Assembly: GCA_016213015.1 (NCBI GenBank)
Contig: JACRCE010000011.1
Location: 10,586 to 74,585 of the forward strand
Source of the DNA: Deltaproteobacteria bacterium
GTDB lineage: Bacteria > Desulfobacterota > GWC2-55-46
Reading direction: 5' to 3'
DNA length: 64,000 nucleotides
Shown in pieces: positions 11,712 through 27,608 of this stretch. Position numbers and translations under genes: made by a program. The stretch's first letter is position 1, and every line of letters begins with the position of its first letter. The notes below the pieces were generated by a model. The model was not told the origin of the DNA. It saw nothing but the letters and a program-made list of their open reading frames with translations, and ran no database searches.

Positions 11712-11787
11712 TGGTGATCCTATCGGGATTCGAACCCGAGTTTTGGCCTTGAGAGGGCCACGTCCTAGGCCTCTAGACGATAGGACC
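11712..11787 (-). tRNA. tRNA-Glu (anticodon CTC)
   Basis: The 76-nt sequence GGTCCTATCGTCTAGAGGCCTAGGAC GTGGCC CTCTCAA GGCCA ... GGTTCGAATCC ... TAGGATCACCA folds as a cloverleaf. It has a 7-bp acceptor stem with one G-T pair, the canonical Glu D-arm, anticodon loop CTCTCAA, and an encoded CCA. Confidence 0.85.
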
Positions 11788-12070: not shown

Positions 12071-12853
12071 GTGCAAAAAATGAAAAAACAACTTGAAACC
12101 ACGACAATCTTCCTGCTCGCATTCGTTGCGTTTGCATTAGCGGCGTTCATACCGGCTCAGGTTCAGGCACTCCCTACCTTGCAGCTTGACATAGCAAATG
12201 GAGTGTACGACCCTGTGAGCAAGACGATCGTTTCGTCCGCCGACAAATTTACGTTGTATGCATTCCTATTGCCTGGAAAAACTCAGGCGCCGGTAACCGG
12301 CGCATACTATATCTCCGCGGCGCTCGTTGCTACGAATGGCAAGACAATAGGGGCAGGCAACTTCGGCAGCTTCTCCTTCAACGGCGTTCAAAAGAACGTT
12401 ACCAACGATATGGTCTTTGGGACGCCGCCGCTTGAGGCCAATCTGGCATTTGACCCAGGCGATCTTTCCAAACACGGCATATACCCGACGTACTTCAACG
12501 AGTTTTCATTCAAGTTCAACTCCAACAACGAAACGGCTCAATACAACACGCAAGACAGGGCCAAGGCAGGTACGCCGATCAACATCGCGCCGAATCCTAA
12601 CAACGGCAACATGTATTACGCGGCGTTTTCGGTGGATACGACGCTTCTCGCGCCCGGCTATGCCATACATTTCGACCTGTACAACGAGAAGGTCAGACGC
12701 GGGGATACCGATGTAAATCTCTTTGCTCCCTTCTCGCACGACGCTCAGTCAAGGGCAAAGGTGCCGGAGCCTGCCACGGCGCTGTTGATTGGCGCCGGAT
12801 TTGCCGGTCTGTGGCTACATGGCAAAAAACAGAAGGGCACCTCTAAAAATTAG
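12071..12853 (+). CDS. PEP-CTERM sorting-domain secreted protein
   Basis: The ORF has an N-terminal signal peptide and a C-terminus VPEPATALLIGAGFAGLWLHGKKQKG (PEP motif, hydrophobic helix, basic tail). The last residues TSKN and the TAG stop are encoded by the terminal inverted repeat of repeat element B1. Confidence 0.8.
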   Translation: MQKMKKQLETTTIFLLAFVAFALAAFIPAQVQALPTLQLDIANGVYDPVSKTIVSSADKFTLYAFLLPGKTQAPVTGAYYISAALVATNGKTIGAGNFGSFSFNGVQKNVTNDMVFGTPPLEANLAFDPGDLSKHGIYPTYFNEFSFKFNSNNETAQYNTQDRAKAGTPINIAPNPNNGNMYYAAFSVDTTLLAPGYAIHFDLYNEKVRRGDTDVNLFAPFSHDAQSRAKVPEPATALLIGAGFAGLWLHGKKQKGTSKN

Positions 12854-12970
12854 AGATTTTTTCCGCAATCAAGGAATGGCGAAAATAAAAAGTGGAGCAT
12901 ATATGTGAATATGTGAGCATTTTTATTTTAGCCATGACACAGAGCCCGGAAAAAAGATCAATTTTTAGAG
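12842..12970. mobile_element. MITE-like element, family B, copy B1 (intact, ~129 bp)
   Basis: It has imperfect ~24-bp TIRs TCTAAAAATTAGAGATTTTTTCCG ... CCGGAAAAAAGATCAATTTTTAGAG. The interior is homologous to the other B copies. Confidence 0.6.
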
Positions 12971-13074
12971 GTGGCCATAAAATAAGCGCTTGATTTTTAA
13001 GAAATCTGCCGCTATAATGCCCAAAAAGCATGTAGGTTGAAAATCCCGTACTAATAAGGTGAACGGATTAACGA

Positions 13075-13437
13075 ATGAACACCAATATCTGCCCAAGATG
13101 TTTGGACAAATTTTACACCGCCGTTACAGGAGTAGACCTTACCTGCCCGTTTTGCGGATTCATTCTCAAGTATGCGGATGTCAAAAGGCGTTGCGAGATG
13201 CGCTCCTCCATTGAAAGGGGATGTCTCCTTTCAAAAGGCGAGACCATCGTGAGCGCCAAAACCTTCGACATCTCAAGCAAAGGCGTAGGCATCACCTCAA
13301 ACGGCATACTGCCGTTCGTTACCGACGAAGTGATGAACGTCATCGTCAAGGAGTTTGACATAGACTCCACGGCCCGCATCGTCTGGGTACAAAAGTTTGA
13401 AAGCGCCATTTACAAGGCTGGGCTGAAGTTTTGTTAG
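13075..13437 (+). CDS. PilZ-domain protein with N-terminal Cys4 zinc ribbon
   Basis: The ORF has a CPRC...CPFC ribbon followed by RRCEMRSS and DISSKGVGI, which match the PilZ RxxxR / DxSxxG c-di-GMP-binding motifs. The gene has lower GC than its neighbours. Confidence 0.55.
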   Translation: MNTNICPRCLDKFYTAVTGVDLTCPFCGFILKYADVKRRCEMRSSIERGCLLSKGETIVSAKTFDISSKGVGITSNGILPFVTDEVMNVIVKEFDIDSTARIVWVQKFESAIYKAGLKFC

Positions 13438-13594
13438 CTGACGGCAGTGAAGGCGCGTAAGCTGTAGCGGCTGTTGGCCGGGTCAACACCTTAGTAGCCC
13501 TACCCGCGAAAAACATCCTGCTGGAAATACCTCGCCGGATTTGTTAGTATCACCTCTCCCCGCTTAAAACGCGCGGGGACATGTCTTAATTCAC

Positions 13595-14851
13595 GTGAGT
13601 CCTGACAGAAAAAAAAGTATAGGCATTGCCCTCGATCTCGGCACGACCACCGTTGTCTGCGCGGCAATGACCCTGAACGACCGCGAAGTCATCGGCAGAC
13701 AGGCGCGTCCAAATCCGCAATCGGCATGGGGCGCGGACGTAGTGGCAAGGATGAGCGCGCTGAAGGCCGACGCTGAACTACTTCCGGCAATGTCGGAACT
13801 GACTGTCGGCGTCTGCAACGAAATGATACGCTCATTTGCATCGCCGGCCGAAATGGATGAGATTGTCGTTGCCGGTAATCCTGTAATGCAGGCGATCCTT
13901 CTGAGGGTGTCCCCTCTTTCCCTTGCCCTGCCGCCGTACAGGCCGCCGTTCAAGGAAGCGCAGAGGGTACAAGCCGATAGATTCGGCTTCGACACGCGGA
14001 CCGGCGCGGGGTTGTACGTCTTCCCGCAGATAGGCGGTTTCGTGGGCGGGGACGCCGTGGCGGTCGCTTTATCGCTCAACATGGGCAAGCGCCATAATGC
14101 CGATAACGCGGTCATTGCTATTGACATCGGCACGAACAGCGAGGTAATCCTCTCCGCTGGAGAAAAGCTGTTCGCGGCAAGCGCGCCTGCAGGCCCGGCA
14201 TTCGAGGCGGCGGGGGCAAGATGCGGCATGATTGCTCAGGCCGGCGCCATGCAGGGCGTGAGCATCACGGGCGACAGGGTAACGCTTGATGTAATAGGCA
14301 ACGTAGCGCCGAAAGGCATCTGCGGCTCCGGCCTTGTAGACGCGGTTGCCGCGTTGCTTGACAGAGGGGTCATCGCCCCTTCAGGCAGGATAAAAGACAA
14401 AGACGAGATACCGGACAACCTTTCAGGCAGAATAAAAAAGGACGGGGAGGCCAACGCATTCGTGCTCCACCGGGGAGCTTCAGGCGACATCTGTCTTTTT
14501 CAGGAGGACATACGCGCCCTTCAAAACGCGAAGGCCGCCATACGCGCAAGCATATCCATGCTCATGCTCAAAGCGAAGATAAGCCCTGGCCGCGTCGAGA
14601 AGATATATATATCCGGGGCCTTTGGATCCAATCTGAAGAGCGCGTCTTTATCAAGACTGGGCATCATTGATCCCCTCTGGCGCGATATCGTCTCTCCAGT
14701 CGGAGACGCGGCGCTTGACGGCGCAATGATGGCGCTTGGGTCCGACCCTGCCAAGAAAGAGGCCGAGCGGATAGCGGAAGACGCGAAGTTCGTAGCGTTA
14801 TCCGGAAGCGCGCAGTTCGAGCGGGAGTTCATAAGCAATATGACGTTTTAG
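13595..14851 (+). CDS. ASKHA-fold ATPase-like protein (DUF4445 / RACo C-terminal-domain-like)
   Basis: The 418-aa ORF has a GTG start, IGIALDLGTTTV and IAIDIGTNSE (two sugar-kinase/actin-like phosphate loops), and ICGSGL. Confidence 0.55.
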   Translation: MSPDRKKSIGIALDLGTTTVVCAAMTLNDREVIGRQARPNPQSAWGADVVARMSALKADAELLPAMSELTVGVCNEMIRSFASPAEMDEIVVAGNPVMQAILLRVSPLSLALPPYRPPFKEAQRVQADRFGFDTRTGAGLYVFPQIGGFVGGDAVAVALSLNMGKRHNADNAVIAIDIGTNSEVILSAGEKLFAASAPAGPAFEAAGARCGMIAQAGAMQGVSITGDRVTLDVIGNVAPKGICGSGLVDAVAALLDRGVIAPSGRIKDKDEIPDNLSGRIKKDGEANAFVLHRGASGDICLFQEDIRALQNAKAAIRASISMLMLKAKISPGRVEKIYISGAFGSNLKSASLSRLGIIDPLWRDIVSPVGDAALDGAMMALGSDPAKKEAERIAEDAKFVALSGSAQFEREFISNMTF

Positions 14852-14867
14852 AGAAACACTGGAAGAT

Positions 14868-15374
14868 ATGAAAAAAGCGATCCGCATATTAAATGAGCTT
14901 GTCGAAAAAGGCGTTGTCGAGCAATACGCCCTTGGCGGCGCCGTGGCGGTTTTATTCTATACGGAAACGCTCAACACCAAGGACGTGGATGTATTCGTAA
15001 CCACGCACGTTACAAAATCTAAAACCGGCATCGTACATCTCGGCTCCATATACGAGCATCTGAAAAAAGCCGGTTACAAAATGGACGGCCAATACTTCAT
15101 CGTAGACGGCGTCCCCGTTGACTTCATAGCGGCTTATGACGACCTAACCATGGAGGCCGTGGATAACGCGGCGGATAAATTGTACGGCGGGATAAAGGTC
15201 AGGGTTTTCAGACCGGAGCATCTCATGGCCATAGCCTTGCAAACCGGAAGGCCGCAGGACTTAAGAAAGATAGATTTGCTGAAGACGCAAACCGCGCTCG
15301 ACGAAAAATTTTTAATGGCCACATTGAAGCGCCACGGCTTGGTTGAAAAATGGAGAAGATATGCCGACGGATAA
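14868..15374 (+). CDS. nucleotidyltransferase-fold protein (minimal Pol-beta-like NTase)
   Basis: The 168-aa ORF contains LGGAVAVLFYTETLNTKDVDVFV, which fits the hG[GS]-x(9-13)-DxD NTase signature. Its function is unknown. Confidence 0.45.
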   Translation: MKKAIRILNELVEKGVVEQYALGGAVAVLFYTETLNTKDVDVFVTTHVTKSKTGIVHLGSIYEHLKKAGYKMDGQYFIVDGVPVDFIAAYDDLTMEAVDNAADKLYGGIKVRVFRPEHLMAIALQTGRPQDLRKIDLLKTQTALDEKFLMATLKRHGLVEKWRRYADG

Positions 15375-15564
15375 AAAAAGGCTTTTCAAGGAAGCCCTGA
15401 AACACAACCGCGCAATATTTGCCTCAAAGGAAAAGATGCGCCTGATATGGGCGAAAAAGCCGGTGGAGGAAAAGATTGCCGAGCTTATAAAACTGCAAGA
15501 GGCAACGGCCGTCCTTCATCCCGAGTTGAGGAGCTTAATCCCGTGGAGGTTGAAAAAACGATGA
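15343..15564 (+). CDS. small basic helical protein (73 aa), hypothetical
   Basis: It overlaps the NTase gene by 32 nt. Its TGA stop overlaps the purH ATG (ATGA), which suggests translational coupling. Confidence 0.35.
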   Translation: MKNGEDMPTDKKRLFKEALKHNRAIFASKEKMRLIWAKKPVEEKIAELIKLQEATAVLHPELRSLIPWRLKKR

Positions 15565-17138
15565 AGAAGATACACAGGGCGATAATAAGCGTAACAGACA
15601 AGACCGGCGTCGTGGAGCTGGCAAAGGAGCTTCACGCGGCCGGGGTGGAGATAATATCAACAGGGGGAACGGCCGATCTTCTCAAGAGGTCGGGCGTTGC
15701 CGTAATCCCCATATCGTCCTACACCGGCTTTCCAGAGATGCTTGACGGAAGGCTCAAAACGCTCCACCCCAAGATACACGGCGGCATCCTCGGACGCCGC
15801 GCCGACGAGGCGCATCTCAAGGACATGCGGACGCACGGGATACTGCCCATTGACATGGTGGTCGTGAACCTTTACGCCTTCGAGCAGACAATCGCCAAGG
15901 GGGCAGGCTTTGCCGAGGCCGTGGAAAACATTGACATCGGCGGGCCGACCATGATCCGCGCCGCGGCAAAGAACCACGAGGACGTGGCCGTGGTGGTTGA
16001 CCCTGCGGACTATCAAAAGATACTCTCAGAGATGAAGGCAAAGAAGGGGATGCTCTCGCTCAAGACGCGCCTTTCCCTTGCGAAAAAATGCTTTCAGCTC
16101 ACGGCGCGCTACGACGCCGCGATATCCAACTACCTCGGCGGCTTGCCGGACTCGGCGGAGGACGCGCCCAAGACCTTCCCTGACACCTATACCGTCCAGC
16201 TCGAGAAGGTGCAGGACTTGAGATACGGAGAGAACCCGCACCAGAGCGGGGCATTCTATAAACCTCATTCAAACGGCGACGACGCGGACGCCGGCTTTAC
16301 GCAGTTGCAGGGCAAAGAGCTTTCCTACAACAACATCCTCGACATGAGCGCGGCAATGAATCTCGTCGGCGACTTTCATGAAAAGGCCGCAGTCATCATA
16401 AAACACAACAACCCGTGCGGCGTGGCGCTGTCGAAGACAGGGTTGCTTGACGCTTACGCCTTGGCTTATGCGTGCGACAAGACCTCGGCCTTCGGCGGCA
16501 TAGTCGCTTTCAACGGCAAGGTGGACTCAACGCTCGCTCAGACGCTGAACGGAATATTCCTCGAGGCAATCATAGCCCCTGCCTTCGACGCTGCCGCGCT
16601 TTCAACCTTCAACGCCAAGAAGAACCTCCGCGTCATAGAAGCGCCATCGCTGGGCAAGCGCATGCCGCAAAATCGTTTCATCTACGACATAAAAAACGCG
16701 CTCTCAGGCGTACTCCTCCAGAGCCATGACGTTGAAAGCGCGAAGGAGTTGAAGACCGTGACGAAAAGGGCGCCTGATGAAGCCGAGCTTGAAGACCTGC
16801 TGTTTGCATGGACGTGCTGCAAACACGTAAAGAGCAACGCCGTCATTTTCGCGCATTGTCAAGCCGCCATAGGCATAGGCGCTGGACAGATGTCGAGGAT
16901 AGATTCAACGCGCATAGCGGCCATCAAGGCGCAGGAAGCCGGCCTTGAGGTCGAGGGCGCGGTCATGGCCTCCGACGCCTTCTTCCCATTCAGGGACAAC
17001 GTGGACATGGCGGCAAAGCACGGCCTCAAAGCCATTATCCAGCCCGGCGGCTCCATAAGGGACGAAGAGATCATAAAGGCCGCGGACGAGCACGGCATAG
17101 CAATGGTATTTACCGGCATAAGACACTTCAAGCACTAA
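15561..17138 (+). CDS. purH: bifunctional AICAR transformylase / IMP cyclohydrolase
   Basis: The conserved start is MKKIHRAIISVTDKTG at 15561, preceded by GGAGG. The track ORF begins earlier at 15447. Homology runs the full length. Confidence 0.95.
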   Translation: MKKIHRAIISVTDKTGVVELAKELHAAGVEIISTGGTADLLKRSGVAVIPISSYTGFPEMLDGRLKTLHPKIHGGILGRRADEAHLKDMRTHGILPIDMVVVNLYAFEQTIAKGAGFAEAVENIDIGGPTMIRAAAKNHEDVAVVVDPADYQKILSEMKAKKGMLSLKTRLSLAKKCFQLTARYDAAISNYLGGLPDSAEDAPKTFPDTYTVQLEKVQDLRYGENPHQSGAFYKPHSNGDDADAGFTQLQGKELSYNNILDMSAAMNLVGDFHEKAAVIIKHNNPCGVALSKTGLLDAYALAYACDKTSAFGGIVAFNGKVDSTLAQTLNGIFLEAIIAPAFDAAALSTFNAKKNLRVIEAPSLGKRMPQNRFIYDIKNALSGVLLQSHDVESAKELKTVTKRAPDEAELEDLLFAWTCCKHVKSNAVIFAHCQAAIGIGAGQMSRIDSTRIAAIKAQEAGLEVEGAVMASDAFFPFRDNVDMAAKHGLKAIIQPGGSIRDEEIIKAADEHGIAMVFTGIRHFKH

Positions 17139-17160: not shown

Positions 17161-18408
17161 ATGAAAGTCCTTGTAATAGGAAGCGGCGGCAGGGAACACG
17201 CCCTTGTATGGAAGCTCAAGCAAAGTCCCCTCGTCAAGAAGATATATGCGGCGCCGGGCAACCCCGGAACAGCGGCGATTGCCGAGAACGTGCCCATCGA
17301 CTCGCTCGACGCGGGACGCCTTAAGGATTTTGCGCTCAAGAACAAGATAGACCTTACGATAGTTGGGCCCGAGGCGCCTCTTGCGCTCGGCTTATGCGAC
17401 CTGTTCAGGACGAACAAGCTTGCCGTCTTCGGCCCGTCGAAAAAGGCCGCCCAGCTTGAGGCGAGCAAGGTCTTTGCAAAATCATTGATGGTCAAGTACG
17501 ACATCCCGACAGCGGACTACCGCGCGTTTGATGCGCTTGACGAGGCCGTCAGGCACGTCAAACAGGGCAAGCCGCCGTTCGTCATAAAGGCGGACGGTCT
17601 TGCAGGCGGCAAAGGCGTCATAATCTGCAAAGAGACGGACGAGGCCGTTGTGGCCCTGAACGCGATGATGAGCGGCGCGGGGCGCGTGCTCATAGAGGAG
17701 TTTCTTGAGGGCGAGGAGGCTTCATTCCTCGCCATAACCGACGGCAGGGCCATCGCGCCGCTTGCCCCGGCGCAGGATCACAAGACCATCTTCGACGGAG
17801 ACAAAGGGCCGAACACCGGCGGCATGGGCGCGTACTCTCCGGCGCGGATAGTAACCCCGGCCATCGAAAAGGAGATAATGCAGACCATCATCCGTCCGGT
17901 GGTAGACGCCCTGCAGAGCGAATACATCCCGTTTTGCGGCGTAATCTATGCCGGGCTGATGATCGTCAACGGAAGACCGAAAACCCTGGAGTTCAATGCG
18001 CGTTTCGGAGACCCTGAAACACAGCCGATATTGATGCGTCTTGATGAAGACCTTGCCGGACTCCTGCTCCTCGCCGCACAGGGAAGGCTCAGAGAGAGGC
18101 CGCTCCGCTGGAAAGACAACGCCTCGGCCTGCGTTGTCATGGCATCGGAAGGGTATCCGGGAGAATATACCAAAGGCGCTGAGATAACCGGCATAAAAGA
18201 GGCCGAGGCCGAAGAGAACGTAAAGGTCTTTCACGCGGGCACCGCGATGAAGGACGGAAAACTCGTTACGGCCGGCGGCAGGGTGCTCGGCGTAACGGCT
18301 CAAGGACATGGTCTACGCGAGGCCGTTGACGCGGCGTACAAGGCGGTGGAAAAGATACACTTCAAAGGCGCGCAGTTCAGGCGCGACATAGGGAAAAAGG
18401 GGTTATAG
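17161..18408 (+). CDS. purD: phosphoribosylamine--glycine ligase
   Basis: The 415-aa ORF starts MKVLVIGSGGREHAL and has an ATP-grasp fold. Confidence 0.95.
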   Translation: MKVLVIGSGGREHALVWKLKQSPLVKKIYAAPGNPGTAAIAENVPIDSLDAGRLKDFALKNKIDLTIVGPEAPLALGLCDLFRTNKLAVFGPSKKAAQLEASKVFAKSLMVKYDIPTADYRAFDALDEAVRHVKQGKPPFVIKADGLAGGKGVIICKETDEAVVALNAMMSGAGRVLIEEFLEGEEASFLAITDGRAIAPLAPAQDHKTIFDGDKGPNTGGMGAYSPARIVTPAIEKEIMQTIIRPVVDALQSEYIPFCGVIYAGLMIVNGRPKTLEFNARFGDPETQPILMRLDEDLAGLLLLAAQGRLRERPLRWKDNASACVVMASEGYPGEYTKGAEITGIKEAEAEENVKVFHAGTAMKDGKLVTAGGRVLGVTAQGHGLREAVDAAYKAVEKIHFKGAQFRRDIGKKGL

Positions 18409-18416
18409 GCGGTTAA

Positions 18417-18470
18417 GGGTTGAAAGACGGTTCAGAGATAACCATAAACCGTCTTCCAACCGTCTTTAAC
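18417..18470. repeat. hairpin repeat, family E (GTTGAAAGACGGTT ... AACCGTCTT..AAC)
   Basis: This inverted repeat lies between purD and purE and is followed by the AGGAGG RBS of purE. A second copy is at 18967-19012. Confidence 0.6.
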
Positions 18471-18480
18471 AGGAGGCCAT

Positions 18481-18981
18481 ATGTCTTCAAAACCGGTCGT
18501 AGGCATTCTCATGGGGAGCGATTCAGACCTGGCCGTAATGCGGGAGGCGGAGAGCGCGCTCAAGACGCTTGGCGTGCCATGCGAGATGACCATATCGTCG
18601 GCGCACAGGACGCCTGAGAGGACCGGCGAGTATGCGAAAACGGCCGTAAAGCGCGGCATAAAGGTCATAATCGCCGGGGCCGGAAGCGCGGCTCATCTTG
18701 CAGGGTTCGTTGCCGCGCATACCCCCTTGCCCGTAATCGGCGTGCCCATCGATTCAGGTCCGCTCAAAGGGCTTGACGCCCTTCTTGCAACCGTTCAGAT
18801 GCCTGGCGGAGTGCCAGTCGCATCGATGGCGCTTGGCAAGGCAGGGGCAAGGAACGCGGGCATCTTCGCGGCCCAGATACTTGCCGTATCGGACAAGGCG
18901 CTGGCAAAAAGGCTTGCCTCATATAAAAAGACGCTCGCAAGACAGGTTGAGGAAAAGGCAAGGAAGTTGAAAGACGGTTGA
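18481..18981 (+). CDS. purE: N5-carboxyaminoimidazole ribonucleotide mutase
   Basis: The 166-aa ORF has the signature GILMGSDSDL...IAGAGSAAHL. Confidence 0.9.
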   Translation: MSSKPVVGILMGSDSDLAVMREAESALKTLGVPCEMTISSAHRTPERTGEYAKTAVKRGIKVIIAGAGSAAHLAGFVAAHTPLPVIGVPIDSGPLKGLDALLATVQMPGGVPVASMALGKAGARNAGIFAAQILAVSDKALAKRLASYKKTLARQVEEKARKLKDG

Positions 18982-19012
18982 GAAATAACCGTGAACCGTC
19001 TTTAACCATGAA
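18967..19012. repeat. hairpin repeat, family E copy 2
   Basis: The sequence is GTTGAAAGACGGTTgagaaataaccgtgAACCGTCTTTAAC. It overlaps the 3' end of purE. Confidence 0.6.
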
Positions 19013-19014
19013 CC

Positions 19015-19632
19015 GTGACCGTGAAACCTCTCATAATCACCGGCGAAGACCTCTTTGATTGCATCAAAGAGGTCTTCGCAAGAGGCGGGATAATAGCCTT
19101 TCCCACCGAGACCTTTTACGGCCTTTGCGTTGACCCGTTCAATCCAACGGCCATACAAGCCCTGTTCAACCTCAAGGGACGGCCTGAGTTAAACCCTGTT
19201 GCGCTCATCGTAAAAGACGCGCCCATGCTTGATACGATCGTCTCCGTGATACCGCCGGTTGCCCGGTCCCTCATGGACCGTTTCTGGCCCGGCCCGCTTA
19301 CCATCATATTCAAGGCAGGCCCCGGCTTGTCGATGGAACTCACGGCCGGAACAGGCACAATCGGCGCGCGCGTTTCAAGCAACGTCATTTGCCAAAGGCT
19401 TGTTGCCTCTTTCTCATCCCCGATCACCGCAACCAGCGCAAACCCGTCCGGTCTCCGAGCCGCAACGACGGCCCAAGAAGTGATCGCTTACTTCAACGGC
19501 TCTATTGACGTTGTAATTGACGGCAAGGAAACTCCGGGCGGACACGGCTCGACCGTCGTTGACGTAACCAATAACCGCGTCAAGATCATCCGCGAAGGCG
19601 TAATCCCTTCATCGTCCCTGTTCATAAAATAA
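19015..19632 (+). CDS. tsaC: L-threonylcarbamoyladenylate synthase (TsaC/YrdC family)
   Basis: The 205-aa ORF has the YrdC-fold motifs FPTETFYGL and SANPSG. Confidence 0.8.
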   Translation: MTVKPLIITGEDLFDCIKEVFARGGIIAFPTETFYGLCVDPFNPTAIQALFNLKGRPELNPVALIVKDAPMLDTIVSVIPPVARSLMDRFWPGPLTIIFKAGPGLSMELTAGTGTIGARVSSNVICQRLVASFSSPITATSANPSGLRAATTAQEVIAYFNGSIDVVIDGKETPGGHGSTVVDVTNNRVKIIREGVIPSSSLFIK

Positions 19633-25904: not shown

Positions 25905-27608
25905 ATGGCTAATATACTTTTTGAACCCGGTTCCCCATCTTTCATGGATCTCATTGGAAACGGCAAGATACACGTCGTTCCCAGATACCAGAGGGATTAT
26001 TCGTGGAATTATGAAGAATGGGATGATCTATGGAATGACATTGAAGGCATTAAAACCGAAAAGATACATTATATGGGTTACGTGGTTTTGCAAAAAACAG
26101 ATGACCCGCTGAAATTTTTGGTTATAGACGGCCAACAAAGAATAACCACGTTAAGCATTCTGGCGCTTGGCGTTATCAAGGTATTGGAAGACTGGGTCGA
26201 GCAAGGCGTGGACGCGGCCAACAACAAAAGAAGGATTGCAATTCTTTCGGATAAATTTATCGGATTTACTCCAGCCGCGTCTCTCATGCCTGTAAGCAAG
26301 TTACACCTTAACCGCAACAATGACGGCTTTTATAAAAGTTATTTGATACGGCGGCGCAAACCAACGGCGATTGGAAAGTTGAAGCCGTCGGAAAAAAAGA
26401 TGTGGAGGGCATTCGAGTTCTTTTGCGATAAATTGAAAAAAAGATTCGATGACGATAAGGACGGGGCAACGCTTTCGGACTTTCTGGAAACGACCATTTC
26501 AATGAATCTTGTCTTTACCTCTATTACGGTAGGAAATGATCTGAATGCCTATAAAGTATTTGAGACTCTGAATGCAAGGGGCGTCAAACTTTCAACAGGA
26601 GACCTGATTAAAAACTATCTGTTTGCCGAGGTGGCAAAAACAAGCGAGCATGATCTGGATGAAGCGGAAAGACAATGGCAAAGGATAAACGACATCCTGC
26701 AACAGATCGAACTGCCTGTATTTTTAAGGCACTATTGGAATTCAGCTCATACATTGGAACGAAAAAATACCCTTTACAAAGCCCTGAATAGCGAAGTAAG
26801 AGGCGCCGCCGCCGTATTTAATCTACTTGGGGACATGGATAAGCTGGCTCTTGTTTATACGGCACTTGACAAACCATCCGATACCTTATGGAGCAAGGAA
26901 CAAGCCGTCCTTATAGAAGAACTGTCTTTAGTCAGTAGAACACAGCCTTTTCCTTTATTGCTGGCCGCTTACAAGCATATAAAGCCGTTAGATGAGGCGG
27001 AATTTACCAAGATAATAAGGGATTTAGTTGTCGTGTCTTTTCGTTATAATACCGTCAGCGGATTGAATCCCAATACACAGGAAGAAGCATATAACAAAAC
27101 GGCTATTGGTATCAGTAAGGGAACGTATAAAACCGCGCGCGACGTGTTTAACGGTTACACAAAGGAATTATATGTGGCTGATGAGAAATTTGAAAACGAC
27201 TTTACCTACATGACAATGAACACCACGCGCAATAAAACACTGGCAAGGTATCTTTTATGCAAAATGGAAAGACAACTCTCCGCCATACCGGTTGATTGGA
27301 ACGACAGTAAAGTTACCATTGAACATATACTTCCTGAAAATCCCAATTCCGAATGGGAAAAATGGTTCGACGCTGAACAACAGAATGAAAGCATCTACCG
27401 TATAGGCAACCTTACCTTGCTGGAAACAGGCAAAAACAAAGATTGCGGAAATAAGCTTTTTGCCGAAAAAAAAGACATCTATGCGACAAGTCAATACCTG
27501 CTTACCAAAAACAAAACATGCTTTAACGAATGGAAGCCTGAAGTCTTATTAAGAAGACAGCAAGGGATGGCCTCTCTTGCTAAAACCGTTTGGAAGGTTC
27601 AGTATTAA
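25905..27608 (+). CDS. DUF262/DUF1524 protein (GmrSD-like type IV restriction / ParB-like NTPase + His-Me-finger nuclease)
   Basis: The N-terminal motifs are VPRYQRDYSW and IDGQQRITT. The C-terminal motif is TIEHILPEN...RIGNLTLLETGKN. GC content is markedly lower (~40-45 %) than the ~60 % of flanking genes. Confidence 0.75.
   Translation: MANILFEPGSPSFMDLIGNGKIHVVPRYQRDYSWNYEEWDDLWNDIEGIKTEKIHYMGYVVLQKTDDPLKFLVIDGQQRITTLSILALGVIKVLEDWVEQGVDAANNKRRIAILSDKFIGFTPAASLMPVSKLHLNRNNDGFYKSYLIRRRKPTAIGKLKPSEKKMWRAFEFFCDKLKKRFDDDKDGATLSDFLETTISMNLVFTSITVGNDLNAYKVFETLNARGVKLSTGDLIKNYLFAEVAKTSEHDLDEAERQWQRINDILQQIELPVFLRHYWNSAHTLERKNTLYKALNSEVRGAAAVFNLLGDMDKLALVYTALDKPSDTLWSKEQAVLIEELSLVSRTQPFPLLLAAYKHIKPLDEAEFTKIIRDLVVVSFRYNTVSGLNPNTQEEAYNKTAIGISKGTYKTARDVFNGYTKELYVADEKFENDFTYMTMNTTRNKTLARYLLCKMERQLSAIPVDWNDSKVTIEHILPENPNSEWEKWFDAEQQNESIYRIGNLTLLETGKNKDCGNKLFAEKKDIYATSQYLLTKNKTCFNEWKPEVLLRRQQGMASLAKTVWKVQY

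What the first reader, a model, noticed from the sequence alone, without database searches (positions are those of the whole stretch)
13075..15564. An uncharacterised four-gene module (Zn-ribbon PilZ, ASKHA-fold protein, minimal nucleotidyltransferase, 73-aa basic protein) translationally coupled into purH
Upstream of purHDE lie a PilZ-type c-di-GMP receptor with a Cys4 ribbon; a 418-aa ASKHA (DUF4445, RACo-C-terminal-like) protein lacking the usual ferredoxin domain; a 168-aa Pol-beta-fold NTase (GG...DVDV); and a small basic protein whose TGA overlaps the purH ATG (ATGA). The NTase and small-protein pair resembles NTase-type toxin-antitoxin or defence modules, but neither part matches a family I can name. 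The ASKHA protein could be an ATP-dependent activase. The grouping with a c-di-GMP sensor directly before purine-biosynthesis genes is not a pattern I recognise.
Basis: inference. Interest (0 to 1): 0.5.

Follow-up and report, generated by a model that had tools for sequence, protein, structure and literature searches.

The report
Toxin–antitoxin-like cassette inserted before purH
The four genes are real but do not form one module: a mobile two-gene cassette, made of a small nucleotidyltransferase most like the tuberculosis tRNA toxin MenT1 and a 67-residue basic helical partner, has landed between an old, conserved gene pair (a ferredoxin-less RACo-like ATPase and purH), and the PilZ gene is only a local neighbour.

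Summary
All four ORFs and the ATGA overlap with purH are present as described. The small ORF most likely starts at ATG 15361 (67 aa), not TTG 15343.

The four-gene module is not supported. Comparative loci separate three units:
1. **Backbone.** A ferredoxin-less RACo-like ASKHA gene directly followed by purH-purD-purE-Sua5 is conserved from close relatives to Geobacterales.
2. **PilZ.** The Zn-ribbon PilZ gene is a neighbour only in the closest relatives.
3. **Cassette.** The NTase and small ORF form an autonomous cassette. The pair recurs, always overlapping, in more than 10 unrelated contexts: next to DNA methylases, a transposase, ParE/RelE toxins, and on a plasmid. It is absent from the same site in 82% relatives, and the NTase is cleanly deleted in an 84% relative.

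The NTase is Pfam DUF2204. Its model is closest to the M. tuberculosis toxin MenT1 (Foldseek E 2e-7, TM about 0.67). It shares the T-x-D-x-D active site and an RPQD motif with MenT1.

The partner is a very basic helical hairpin. It resembles MenA1 in size and helical build but has no detectable sequence or fold match to it, it lies downstream of the NTase, and in some family members it is fused to the NTase C-terminus.

Best reading: an uncharacterised MenAT1-like toxin–antitoxin pair. Toxicity is inferred, not shown. Interest is moderate.

The parts
14868..15374 (+). 168-aa minimal Pol-beta-fold nucleotidyltransferase of Pfam DUF2204. This is the MenT1-like putative toxin and the first gene of the cassette.
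   Evidence: Pfam PF09970 E 2.5e-8. AF2 model pLDDT 90.3. The top five Foldseek PDB hits are all MenT1 (8an5, 8an4, 8rr5), E 2e-7, TMq 0.65-0.68. The profile search against PDB hits only MenT1, E 0.008. T37-K-D39-V-D41 aligns with MenT1 T39-R-D41-V-D43, and R128-P-Q-D131 aligns with MenT1 R146-P-Q-D149.
15361..15564 (+). 67-aa very basic helical partner protein, the putative antitoxin or regulatory subunit and second gene of the cassette. Its ATG overlaps the NTase 3' end by 14 nt, and its TGA overlaps the purH ATG.
   Evidence: Found directly downstream of, and overlapping, every full-length NTase homologue examined. dN/dS is 0.10-0.27. AF2 predicts helices 3-32, 35-52 and 54-59, pLDDT 81. 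pI 10.45, net charge +9.7. No Pfam, NCBIfam, PADLOC or PDB match. It is homologous to the C-terminal tails of fused NTase homologues (hhalign 95%, E 3e-8).
13595..14851 (+). 418-aa ferredoxin-less RACo/RamA-like ASKHA ATPase. It is a backbone gene, the conserved upstream partner of purH, and is not part of the cassette.
   Evidence: Pfam RACo_middle plus RACo_C_ter. Below the NCBIfam AcsV and RamA cut-offs. Matches RACo 3zyy residues 205-615. It sits directly upstream of purH in L009-L014, L048, L112, L113 and six Geobacterales/Desulfuromonadales genomes.
13075..13437 (+). 120-aa Zn-ribbon plus PilZ protein with canonical c-di-GMP-binding motifs. It is a separate gene with its own promoter-like site and is a neighbour only in close relatives.
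   Evidence: Pfam PilZ E 1.1e-6. Motifs read from the sequence. There is a 157-nt gap to ASKHA. It is 92-94% identical in L008 and L010-L012 but absent upstream of ASKHA in L013, L014, L025, L112 and L113.
12990..13018 (+). Sigma-70-like promoter match (TTGATT-17-TATAAT) upstream of the PilZ gene.
   Evidence: Consensus scan, 10 of 12 matches. This is a pattern match only.
15561..17138 (+). purH (AICAR formyltransferase / IMP cyclohydrolase), the first gene of the purH-purD-purE-Sua5 backbone. Its ATG overlaps the cassette's stop codon.
   Evidence: NCBIfam purH equivalog, 739 bits. ATGA read from the sequence.
17161..19632 (+). purD, purE and a Sua5/YciO/YrdC-family gene, the rest of the conserved backbone.
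   Evidence: ORFs. The same order is seen in L009-L014, L112 and L113.

Best explanation
The region holds three unrelated units, not one module.

(1) Backbone. ASKHA-purH-purD-purE-Sua5 is an old conserved gene order. The ASKHA protein is a ferredoxin-less RACo/RamA-type ATPase.

(2) PilZ. The Zn-ribbon PilZ gene is an independent upstream neighbour.

(3) Cassette. The NTase gene and the 67-aa ORF form a self-contained two-gene cassette inserted between ASKHA and purH. In this lineage it has been squeezed against both neighbours: 16 nt after the ASKHA stop, and an ATGA junction with purH. It is therefore probably transcribed with the operon.

How the cassette most likely works. It resembles the MenAT1 toxin-antitoxin system of M. 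tuberculosis. The NTase would use an NTP and the D39/D41 metal site to add nucleotides to an RNA 3' end, most likely tRNA CCA ends, and so block translation. The small helical partner would bind the NTase and hold it inactive. It might also induce auto-phosphorylation of the conserved T37, as MenA1 does at MenT1 T39.

Shown: cassette autonomy, the insertion/deletion polymorphism, fold and motif similarity to MenT1, and purifying selection on both genes. Inferred: toxicity, the RNA target, neutralisation by the partner, and T37 phosphorylation.
For: Cassette autonomy:
- NTase homologues of 42-77% identity all carry the homologous small ORF overlapping their 3' end. Their surroundings are unrelated: a methylase/ResIII island (L001), hemerythrin (L004), an RND pump and efp (L005), a DNA methylase (L099), a DDE transposase (L107), ParE plus DUF4258 (L106), panB (L097), and a Methylovirgula plasmid beside CopG/RelE (L111).
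- None of these loci has ASKHA, PilZ or purH.

Insertion and deletion at this site:
- L011/L012 (ASKHA 82% identical) have a 67-nt empty spacer.
- L009/L010 (84%) have the NTase deleted exactly between two TGAAAAA repeats, with the small ORF kept.
- L008 (76%) has the cassette with spacers, flanked by a perfect 12-nt direct repeat.

Loss asymmetry:
- There are two independent NTase losses with the small ORF kept (L009/10 and L108-110).
- No intact NTase lacks the partner among 14 distinct loci.

Similarity to MenT1:
- Foldseek top five hits, E 2e-7, TM 0.65-0.68.
- MenT1 is the only PDB hit of the profile search. hhalign gives E 1.3e-4.
- The T-x-D-x-D and RPQD residues correspond to the functionally tested MenT1 residues T39 and D41, and to the modelled residues R146 and D149 (PMC11375011).
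- The partner matches MenA1 in size and two-helix build (PMC10435456).
Against: - No experiment has tested toxicity or neutralisation.
- By Pfam the NTase is DUF2204, not AbiEii/DUF1814, the family of MenT1. MenT1 K137, which is essential, aligns to Ala here.
- Gene order is reversed relative to MenAT1: the NTase comes first.
- The partner has no detectable similarity to MenA1.
- The partner is strongly basic (net +8 to +12), which suits a nucleic-acid-binding accessory at least as well as an inhibitor.
- In about 5% of the best family representatives the partner is fused to the NTase C-terminus. That is compatible with fused TA systems but equally with a two-part enzyme.
- PADLOC and PHROGs give no hit, and there are no homologues in phage collections.
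- In L009 the retained small ORF has lost its ATG through an A7-to-A6 frameshift, so its retention may simply be decay in progress.
Confidence: 0.55

Rival explanations
1. Two-part enzyme, not a toxin-antitoxin pair. The small basic helical protein is an obligatory accessory or substrate-binding subunit, for example an RNA- or tRNA-binding tail. It gives the minimal NTase its substrate affinity, and the complex is the active, non-toxic or conditionally used enzyme.
For: - The partner is very basic (pI 10-11.5).
- It is translationally coupled downstream by an 8-14-nt overlap.
- It occurs as a C-terminal fusion to the NTase in several family members.
- There is a precedent from established knowledge: the NTase/helical-partner pairs HI0073/HI0074 were first read as two-subunit enzymes, and kanamycin NTase carries its helical domain fused.
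Against: - The patchy presence/absence among close relatives, and the association with restriction-modification genes, TA genes, a transposase and a plasmid, are typical of selfish or defence cassettes.
- The closest structure is a bona fide toxin.
- The NTase was lost twice while the partner was kept, and the reverse was never seen.
- Fused toxin-antitoxin proteins are known (from my own knowledge: CapRel-type), so fusion does not discriminate between the two readings.
Confidence: 0.25
2. A small-molecule (antibiotic) nucleotidyltransferase of the ANT(2'')-Ia or LnuA kind. On this reading it is a mobile resistance gene rather than a toxin.
For: Foldseek finds ANT(2'')-Ia and LnuA at E 1e-4 to 5e-4, TM about 0.5. 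The gene has a mobile, patchy distribution.
Against: - MenT1 matches better (E 2e-7, TM 0.65-0.68).
- MenT1 alone shares the T-x-D-x-D and RPQD motifs.
- Resistance NTases have no obligatory small partner gene, to my knowledge.
- NCBIfam, which carries the resistance-gene models, gives no hit.
Confidence: 0.07
3. One reading: PilZ, ASKHA, NTase and the small protein form one functional module that links c-di-GMP sensing to purine biosynthesis.
For: All are co-directional and closely spaced. The last three are tightly packed (16-nt gap, 14-nt overlap, ATGA) and probably co-transcribed in this genome. PilZ-ASKHA-NTase-small-purH recurs in one 76% relative, L008.
Against: - The grouping dissolves in every other comparison.
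- A 157-nt gap and a separate promoter-like site set PilZ apart.
- L010 has another gene between PilZ and ASKHA.
Confidence: 0.04

Closest known systems
MenAT1 (Rv0078A/Rv0078B) toxin-antitoxin system of Mycobacterium tuberculosis (PDB 8AN4, 8AN5, 8RR5; PMC10435456, PMC11375011)
   Same: - A minimal, stand-alone Pol-beta-fold NTase of under 200 aa. It is the best structural match (E 2e-7, TM 0.65-0.68) and the only sequence-profile hit in the PDB.
- A shared T-x-D-x-D active-site string that includes the MenT1 phospho-acceptor position, and a shared RPQD motif.
- The partner is a protein of about 67 aa (MenA1 is 68 aa) with a long helix plus a shorter helix and no DNA-binding domain.
- The two genes overlap.
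   Different: - A different Pfam family: DUF2204 rather than AbiEii/DUF1814.
- Only 18-21% identity.
- The MenT1 K137 equivalent is Ala.
- Gene order is reversed, with the NTase upstream.
- The partner shows no sequence or fold match to MenA1, is strongly basic, and is fused to the NTase in some members.
- No functional data exist.
AbiEi/AbiEii and MenA3/MenT3 (DUF1814 NTase toxins with COG5340 antitoxins)
   Same: NTase toxin logic. A conserved Ser/Thr lies next to the catalytic Asp pair and is phosphorylated for neutralisation (PMC11375011).
   Different: Those toxins are about 290 aa with a large C-terminal domain. Foldseek to TglT/MenT3 gives only E 0.075. Their antitoxins are roughly 200-aa wHTH proteins encoded upstream. 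Nothing comparable is present here.
MNT-HEPN modules (minimal NTase antitoxin plus HEPN RNase toxin)
   Same: The NTase gene comes first, a helical partner gene comes second, and the two overlap.
   Different: The partner here is 67 aa and has no Rx4-6H HEPN motif (invariants: K, R, A, E, K, Q, P, W, L). The NTase is larger than an MNT, and the Foldseek match to the MNT complex 7ae9 is insignificant (E 0.058).
RACo / RamA / AcsV corrinoid reductive activases (for the ASKHA gene)
   Same: The middle and ASKHA ATPase domains are shared: Pfam E 1e-38 and 1e-63, and 3zyy E 7e-53.
   Different: It lacks the N-terminal [2Fe-2S] domain and linker (RACo residues 1-204). It scores far below the AcsV and RamA family cut-offs (237 against 800 bits; 94 against 500 bits). 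It belongs to a distinct clade of about 415 aa that sits upstream of purH.

Membership tests
Pfam DUF2204 (PF09970) nucleotidyltransferases | Score above the Pfam gathering threshold | tested here: met
   34.2 bits against a cut-off of 20.3, E 2.5e-8, residues 3-140. More distant family members (P0030, P0036) fall below threshold.
MenT / AbiEii (DUF1814, PF08843) NTase toxins | Match to the AbiEii/DUF1814 profile | tested here: not met
   The window NTase gives no PF08843 hit even at E<=10, whereas a MenT1 fragment hits it at 8.7e-9.
MenT / AbiEii (DUF1814, PF08843) NTase toxins | Pol-beta motifs I (hGG/S) and II (DxD), with a Ser/Thr phospho-acceptor two residues before the first Asp | tested here: met
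   G23, G24 and D41 are invariant, and D39 and T37 are conserved in at least 90% of 21 homologues. They align with MenT1 T39, D41 and D43.
MenT / AbiEii (DUF1814, PF08843) NTase toxins | C-terminal motifs III/IV, including the essential Lys (MenT1 K137) and Asp (D152) | tested here: inconclusive
   R128-P-Q-D131 aligns with MenT1 R146-P-Q-D149. K137 aligns with Ala and D152 with Lys in the sequence alignments. No residue-level structural superposition was available.
MenT / AbiEii (DUF1814, PF08843) NTase toxins | Overall fold closest to MenT toxins | tested here: met
   The Foldseek PDB top five hits are all MenT1, E 2e-7 to 6.5e-6.
MenT / AbiEii (DUF1814, PF08843) NTase toxins | Growth inhibition through nucleotide addition to tRNA 3' ends | not testable with these tools
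   Needs expression and tRNA-seq or in-vitro assays.
Toxin-antitoxin modules in general | Two small co-directional overlapping genes whose pairing is conserved while the genomic context is not | tested here: met
   At least 10 distinct contexts, always paired with an 8-14-nt overlap.
Toxin-antitoxin modules in general | Presence/absence polymorphism among close relatives, and links to mobile or defence DNA | tested here: met
   An empty site in L011/L012, a partial deletion in L009/L010, and neighbours that include a methylase, a transposase, ParE and a plasmid.
Toxin-antitoxin modules in general | One product is toxic and the other neutralises it | not testable with these tools
   The only indirect evidence is loss asymmetry: the NTase was lost twice with the partner kept, and never the reverse.
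MenA1-type antitoxin | Sequence or fold similarity to MenA1 (Rv0078B) | tested here: not met
   The profile search against PDB does not list 8an5 MenA1 at E<=10. Foldseek with the small-protein model returns nothing. Only size and two-helix build are alike.
MNT-HEPN modules | Partner carries the HEPN Rx4-6H motif and a four-helix fold | tested here: not met
   There is no invariant His, and the invariant residues are K, R, A, E, K, Q, P, W, L. The protein is 67 aa with two main helices.
RACo/RamA/AcsV corrinoid activases (ASKHA gene) | N-terminal [2Fe-2S] ferredoxin domain plus middle and ASKHA domains; score above the NCBIfam cut-off | tested here: not met
   The middle and ASKHA domains are present. 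The ferredoxin domain is absent, with an in-frame stop at 13565-13567. AcsV scores 237 against 800 bits and RamA 94 against 500 bits.
PilZ c-di-GMP receptors | PilZ profile above threshold plus the RxxxR and D/NxSxxG motifs | tested here: met
   29.3 bits against 22.5. R39-C-E-M-R43 and D65-I-S67-S-K-G70 are read from the translation.

The most novel reading that the evidence does not exclude
The DUF2204 NTase and its basic helical module may be a split-or-fused, self-inhibited abortive-infection effector of the CapRel type. On this reading the helical module, encoded separately here and fused in other members, both silences the NTase and senses a trigger such as a phage protein or a shortage of nucleotides. 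Release would let the NTase cap tRNA 3' ends. In this genome its capture into the purHDE operon would tie the toxin/partner ratio to the expression of purine biosynthesis.
Probability: 0.15. Interest if true: 0.65.

Novelty: new variant of a known kind. Interest (0 to 1): 0.4.

Why it matters
DUF2204 is a sizeable NTase family with no published function. The profile search found 3,010 clusters at 50% identity, and full-text searches found no study of it.

Linking it structurally and by active-site motifs to MenT1 gives a concrete, testable hypothesis for the whole family: tRNA 3'-end nucleotidylation held in check by a small partner. The partner is a previously undescribed 65-70-aa basic helical protein. 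It occurs both split and fused, which would make a useful system for studying how NTase toxins are regulated.

For genome annotation, the result shows that tight packing and an ATGA junction with a housekeeping operon do not imply shared function. Separately, the conserved pairing of a ferredoxin-less RACo-like ATPase with purH is an unexplained gene linkage worth a genetic test.

Tried and rejected
- PADLOC and PHROGs gave no significant hits for any of the four proteins.
- NCBIfam had nothing for the NTase or the small protein.
- Rfam found no riboswitch or RNA family in 12800-15700 at E<=1, and only two tRNAs in the whole window. A ZTP or purine riboswitch ahead of purH was therefore not found.
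- A 17-nt inverted repeat around the small ORF start was tested as a conserved translational-coupling hairpin across 11 homologues. RNAalifold predicted no conserved pairs, so it was rejected.
- The small-protein model returned nothing from Foldseek against PDB, and its profile search gave only chance-level hits.
- Phage and viral collections contain no homologues of the NTase.
It was rerun with the narrower alignment A4.
- N-terminal extensions of the Geobacter ASKHA ORFs were inspected as possible fused PilZ or ferredoxin domains. They translate to low-complexity P/S/R-rich sequence and are not coding.
- Terminator and promoter scans were at background level, apart from the promoter-like site before PilZ.
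- The HEPN/MNT reading was rejected on motif and size.
Full report
**1. Observation.**
- The PilZ protein (13075-13437) passes the Pfam threshold. It has a Cys4 ribbon (C6, C9, C24, C27) and both c-di-GMP motifs (R39xxxR43, D65xS67xxG70).
- The 418-aa protein (13595-14851) has RACo_middle plus RACo_C_ter domains and matches RACo 3zyy residues 205-615 of 631. An in-frame stop at 13565-13567 excludes an upstream ferredoxin domain.
- The 168-aa NTase (14868-15374) has G23G24 and D39-V-D41 and belongs to Pfam DUF2204.
- The small ORF ends in a TGA that overlaps the purH ATG as ATGA at 15561-15564.
- One correction: the conserved start of the small ORF is ATG 15361 (67 aa, GGAG six bases upstream), not TTG 15343.
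- The window is a contig of a 'Deltaproteobacteria bacterium' MAG.

**2. The NTase and small ORF form an autonomous pair.**
Homologues of the NTase at 42-77% identity were located on their contigs. In every case a homologous ORF of 64-72 aa overlaps the NTase 3' end, while the surroundings are unrelated:
- a DNA methylase / DUF1828 / DUF2442 / ResIII island (L001-L003);
- hemerythrin and mutL/miaA (L004);
- an RND efflux pump and efp (L005-L007).

A metagenome scan added 18 loci, all with the small ORF and none with ASKHA, PilZ or purH. Their neighbours include a second N6/N4 DNA methylase, a DDE transposase, ParE and DUF4258 toxins, and panB. A 31%-identical copy lies on a Methylovirgula plasmid beside a CopG/RelE pair, again with an overlapping basic ORF.

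Both genes are under purifying selection (dN/dS 0.06-0.15 for the NTase and 0.10-0.27 for the small ORF). The NTase family is large: 3,010 clusters at 50% identity with E<=1e-3, almost all stand-alone proteins of 160-180 aa.

**3. The cassette is an insertion into a conserved backbone.**
- The closest relatives keep the synteny argB-TPR-(PEP-CTERM)-PilZ-ASKHA-purH-purD-purE-Sua5-MCP.
- L011/L012 (ASKHA 82% identical) have only a 67-nt spacer between ASKHA and purH.
- L009/L010 (84%) have lost the NTase precisely between two TGAAAAA repeats, one at the NTase start and one near its 3' end. They keep the small ORF at 84% identity and the ATGA junction. The ORF's ATG is lost to an A7-to-A6 frameshift, and NCBI annotates a 55-aa GTG-started remnant, P0041.
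- L008 (76%) has the whole cassette with an 80-nt spacer upstream and an 88-nt spacer downstream. It is flanked by a perfect 12-nt direct repeat, TTTCCGTGCCGT.
- The ATGA coupling to purH is therefore a local result of compaction, not a property of the cassette.
- A second, independent NTase truncation that keeps an intact small ORF is seen in L108-L110.
- No locus has an intact NTase without the partner.

**4. ASKHA-purH is the real conserved linkage, and PilZ is not part of it.**
ASKHA proteins of about 415 aa without a ferredoxin domain lie directly upstream of purH-purD-purE in:
- L013, L014 and L048 (43-47% identical);
- L112 and L113 (51-54%, with alr-mlaEFD upstream);
- six Geobacterales/Desulfuromonadales genomes (35-39%).

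The other 68 loci from the genome scan show no purH within the flanks fetched. Most of them encode ORFs of about 500-780 aa, the size range that includes full-length RACo-like proteins with an N-terminal extension. PilZ is absent upstream of ASKHA outside the closest relatives. In the window it is separated by 157 nt and has its own promoter-like site.

DUF4445/RamA-like proteins have genetic evidence for B12 reactivation of methionine synthase (PMC5764234). Whether the ferredoxin-less clade next to purH does something comparable in one-carbon metabolism is open.

**5. What the cassette resembles.**
- The AF2 model of the NTase is confident (pLDDT 90.3, pTM 0.86).
- Its five best PDB matches are all MenT1, the Rv0078A tRNA-modifying toxin (E 2e-7 to 6.5e-6, TMq 0.48-0.68). 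Next come TM1012, ANT(2'')-Ia and LnuA at E of about 1e-4.
- MenT1 is also the only PDB hit of the sequence profile (E 0.008). hhalign gives E 1.3e-4.
- The alignments put T37-K-D39-V-D41 on MenT1 T39-R-D41-V-D43. In MenT1, T39 is the phospho-acceptor and D41 binds Mg2+. They also put R128-P-Q-D131 on MenT1 R146-P-Q-D149.
- MenT1 K137 has no counterpart. By Pfam, MenT1 is AbiEii/DUF1814 while the window protein is DUF2204.
- MenT1 is neutralised by MenA1, a 68-aa two-helix protein without a DNA-binding domain. MenA1 both sequesters the toxin and induces its auto-phosphorylation (PMC10435456, PMC11375011).
- The window partner is 67 aa and is predicted as a long helix (3-32), a turn at K33-P34 and a second helix (35-52). 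It shows no sequence or fold match to MenA1 or anything else. It is encoded downstream rather than upstream and is very basic (net about +10).

**6. A complication: fused forms.**
Seven of the 150 best family representatives are 216-255 aa, with the NTase at the N-terminus and a basic tail. A profile-profile comparison shows that these tails are homologous to the core of the small protein (residues 16-54; probability 95%, E 3e-8). The partner is thus a module that can be split or fused. This fits a cis/trans inhibitory domain, as in fused toxin-antitoxins (my own knowledge). It fits an accessory RNA-binding subunit equally well.

**7. Verdict.**
High confidence:
- the four genes are not one module;
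- the NTase/small pair is a mobile two-gene cassette inserted into ASKHA-purH;
- the NTase is a DUF2204 protein whose nearest characterised relative is MenT1.

Moderate confidence (about 0.5): it works as a toxin-antitoxin pair in the MenAT1 manner. The main rival (about 0.25) is a two-part NTase in which the basic partner is a substrate-binding subunit.

It is best classed as a new variant of a known kind. It sits in a different family, with reversed gene order, an unrelated partner and split/fused forms. The literature searches run here found no characterisation of DUF2204 or of this pair.

Noticed in passing
window 13595-17138; L013, L014, L015, L025, L032, L035, L038, L046, L048, L112, L113: A ferredoxin-less RACo/RamA-like ASKHA gene of about 415 aa lies directly upstream of purH-purD-purE. 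This holds across these MAG lineages and Geobacterales/Desulfuromonadales (ASKHA identity down to 35-39%). None of the other 68 related loci fetched has purH nearby. The linkage is conserved and unexplained.
   Followed up: partly
L009:1494-1730 and L010:3750-3986, against window 14852-15564: In the closest relative the NTase gene is deleted exactly between two TGAAAAA microhomologies. The small ORF is retained at 84% identity, but an A7-to-A6 change in the poly-A run removes its ATG, and NCBI annotates a 55-aa GTG-started remnant. The same contig is seen in 4 samples.
   Followed up: yes
L008:3476-3487 and L008:4261-4272: A perfect 12-nt direct repeat, TTTCCGTGCCGT, flanks the NTase/small cassette. 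One copy is 7 nt after the ASKHA stop and the other 13 nt after the small-ORF stop. It may be a target-site duplication or a recombination footprint. About 0.03 such pairs are expected by chance in 1 kb (my own estimate, not a tool result).
   Followed up: partly
proteins P0167, P0191, P0194, P0201, P0233, P0260, P0277: These NTase family members of 216-255 aa have a C-terminal basic tail that is homologous to the separately encoded small partner (hhalign 95%, E 3e-8). They are natural NTase-partner fusions.
   Followed up: yes
L108:613-1093, L109:297-777, L110:263-743: This cassette copy has lost the first 70 or so residues of the NTase, including the GG and DxD motifs, while the small ORF is intact. 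It is a second, independent NTase inactivation.
   Followed up: partly
window 25905-27608 (+): A 567-aa GmrSD-type (DUF262/DUF1524) type IV restriction enzyme lies in a 43.5% GC patch of a genome that is otherwise about 55% GC. It sits between a selB-like gene and what look like hydrogenase subunit genes. It is probably a horizontally acquired defence gene.
   Followed up: partly
window 12071-12853 (+); L010:1578-2219: A PEP-CTERM 'choice-of-anchor N' protein lies just upstream of the PilZ gene. In L010 a further PEP-CTERM gene is inserted between PilZ and ASKHA, so this intergenic neighbourhood is variable.
   Followed up: no
window 15350-15377 and 15561-15588: The start region of the small ORF (ATGGAGAAGATATGCCGACGGATAAAAA) is 71% identical to the start region of purH (ATGAAGAAGATACACAGGGCGATAATAA). 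This is probably chance in A/G-rich starts, though it could have favoured recombination.
   Followed up: no
window 11712-11787 (-): A tRNA-Glu (CTC) gene lies between the TPR gene and the PEP-CTERM gene, about 1.3 kb upstream of PilZ. It was not linked to the cassette.
   Followed up: no
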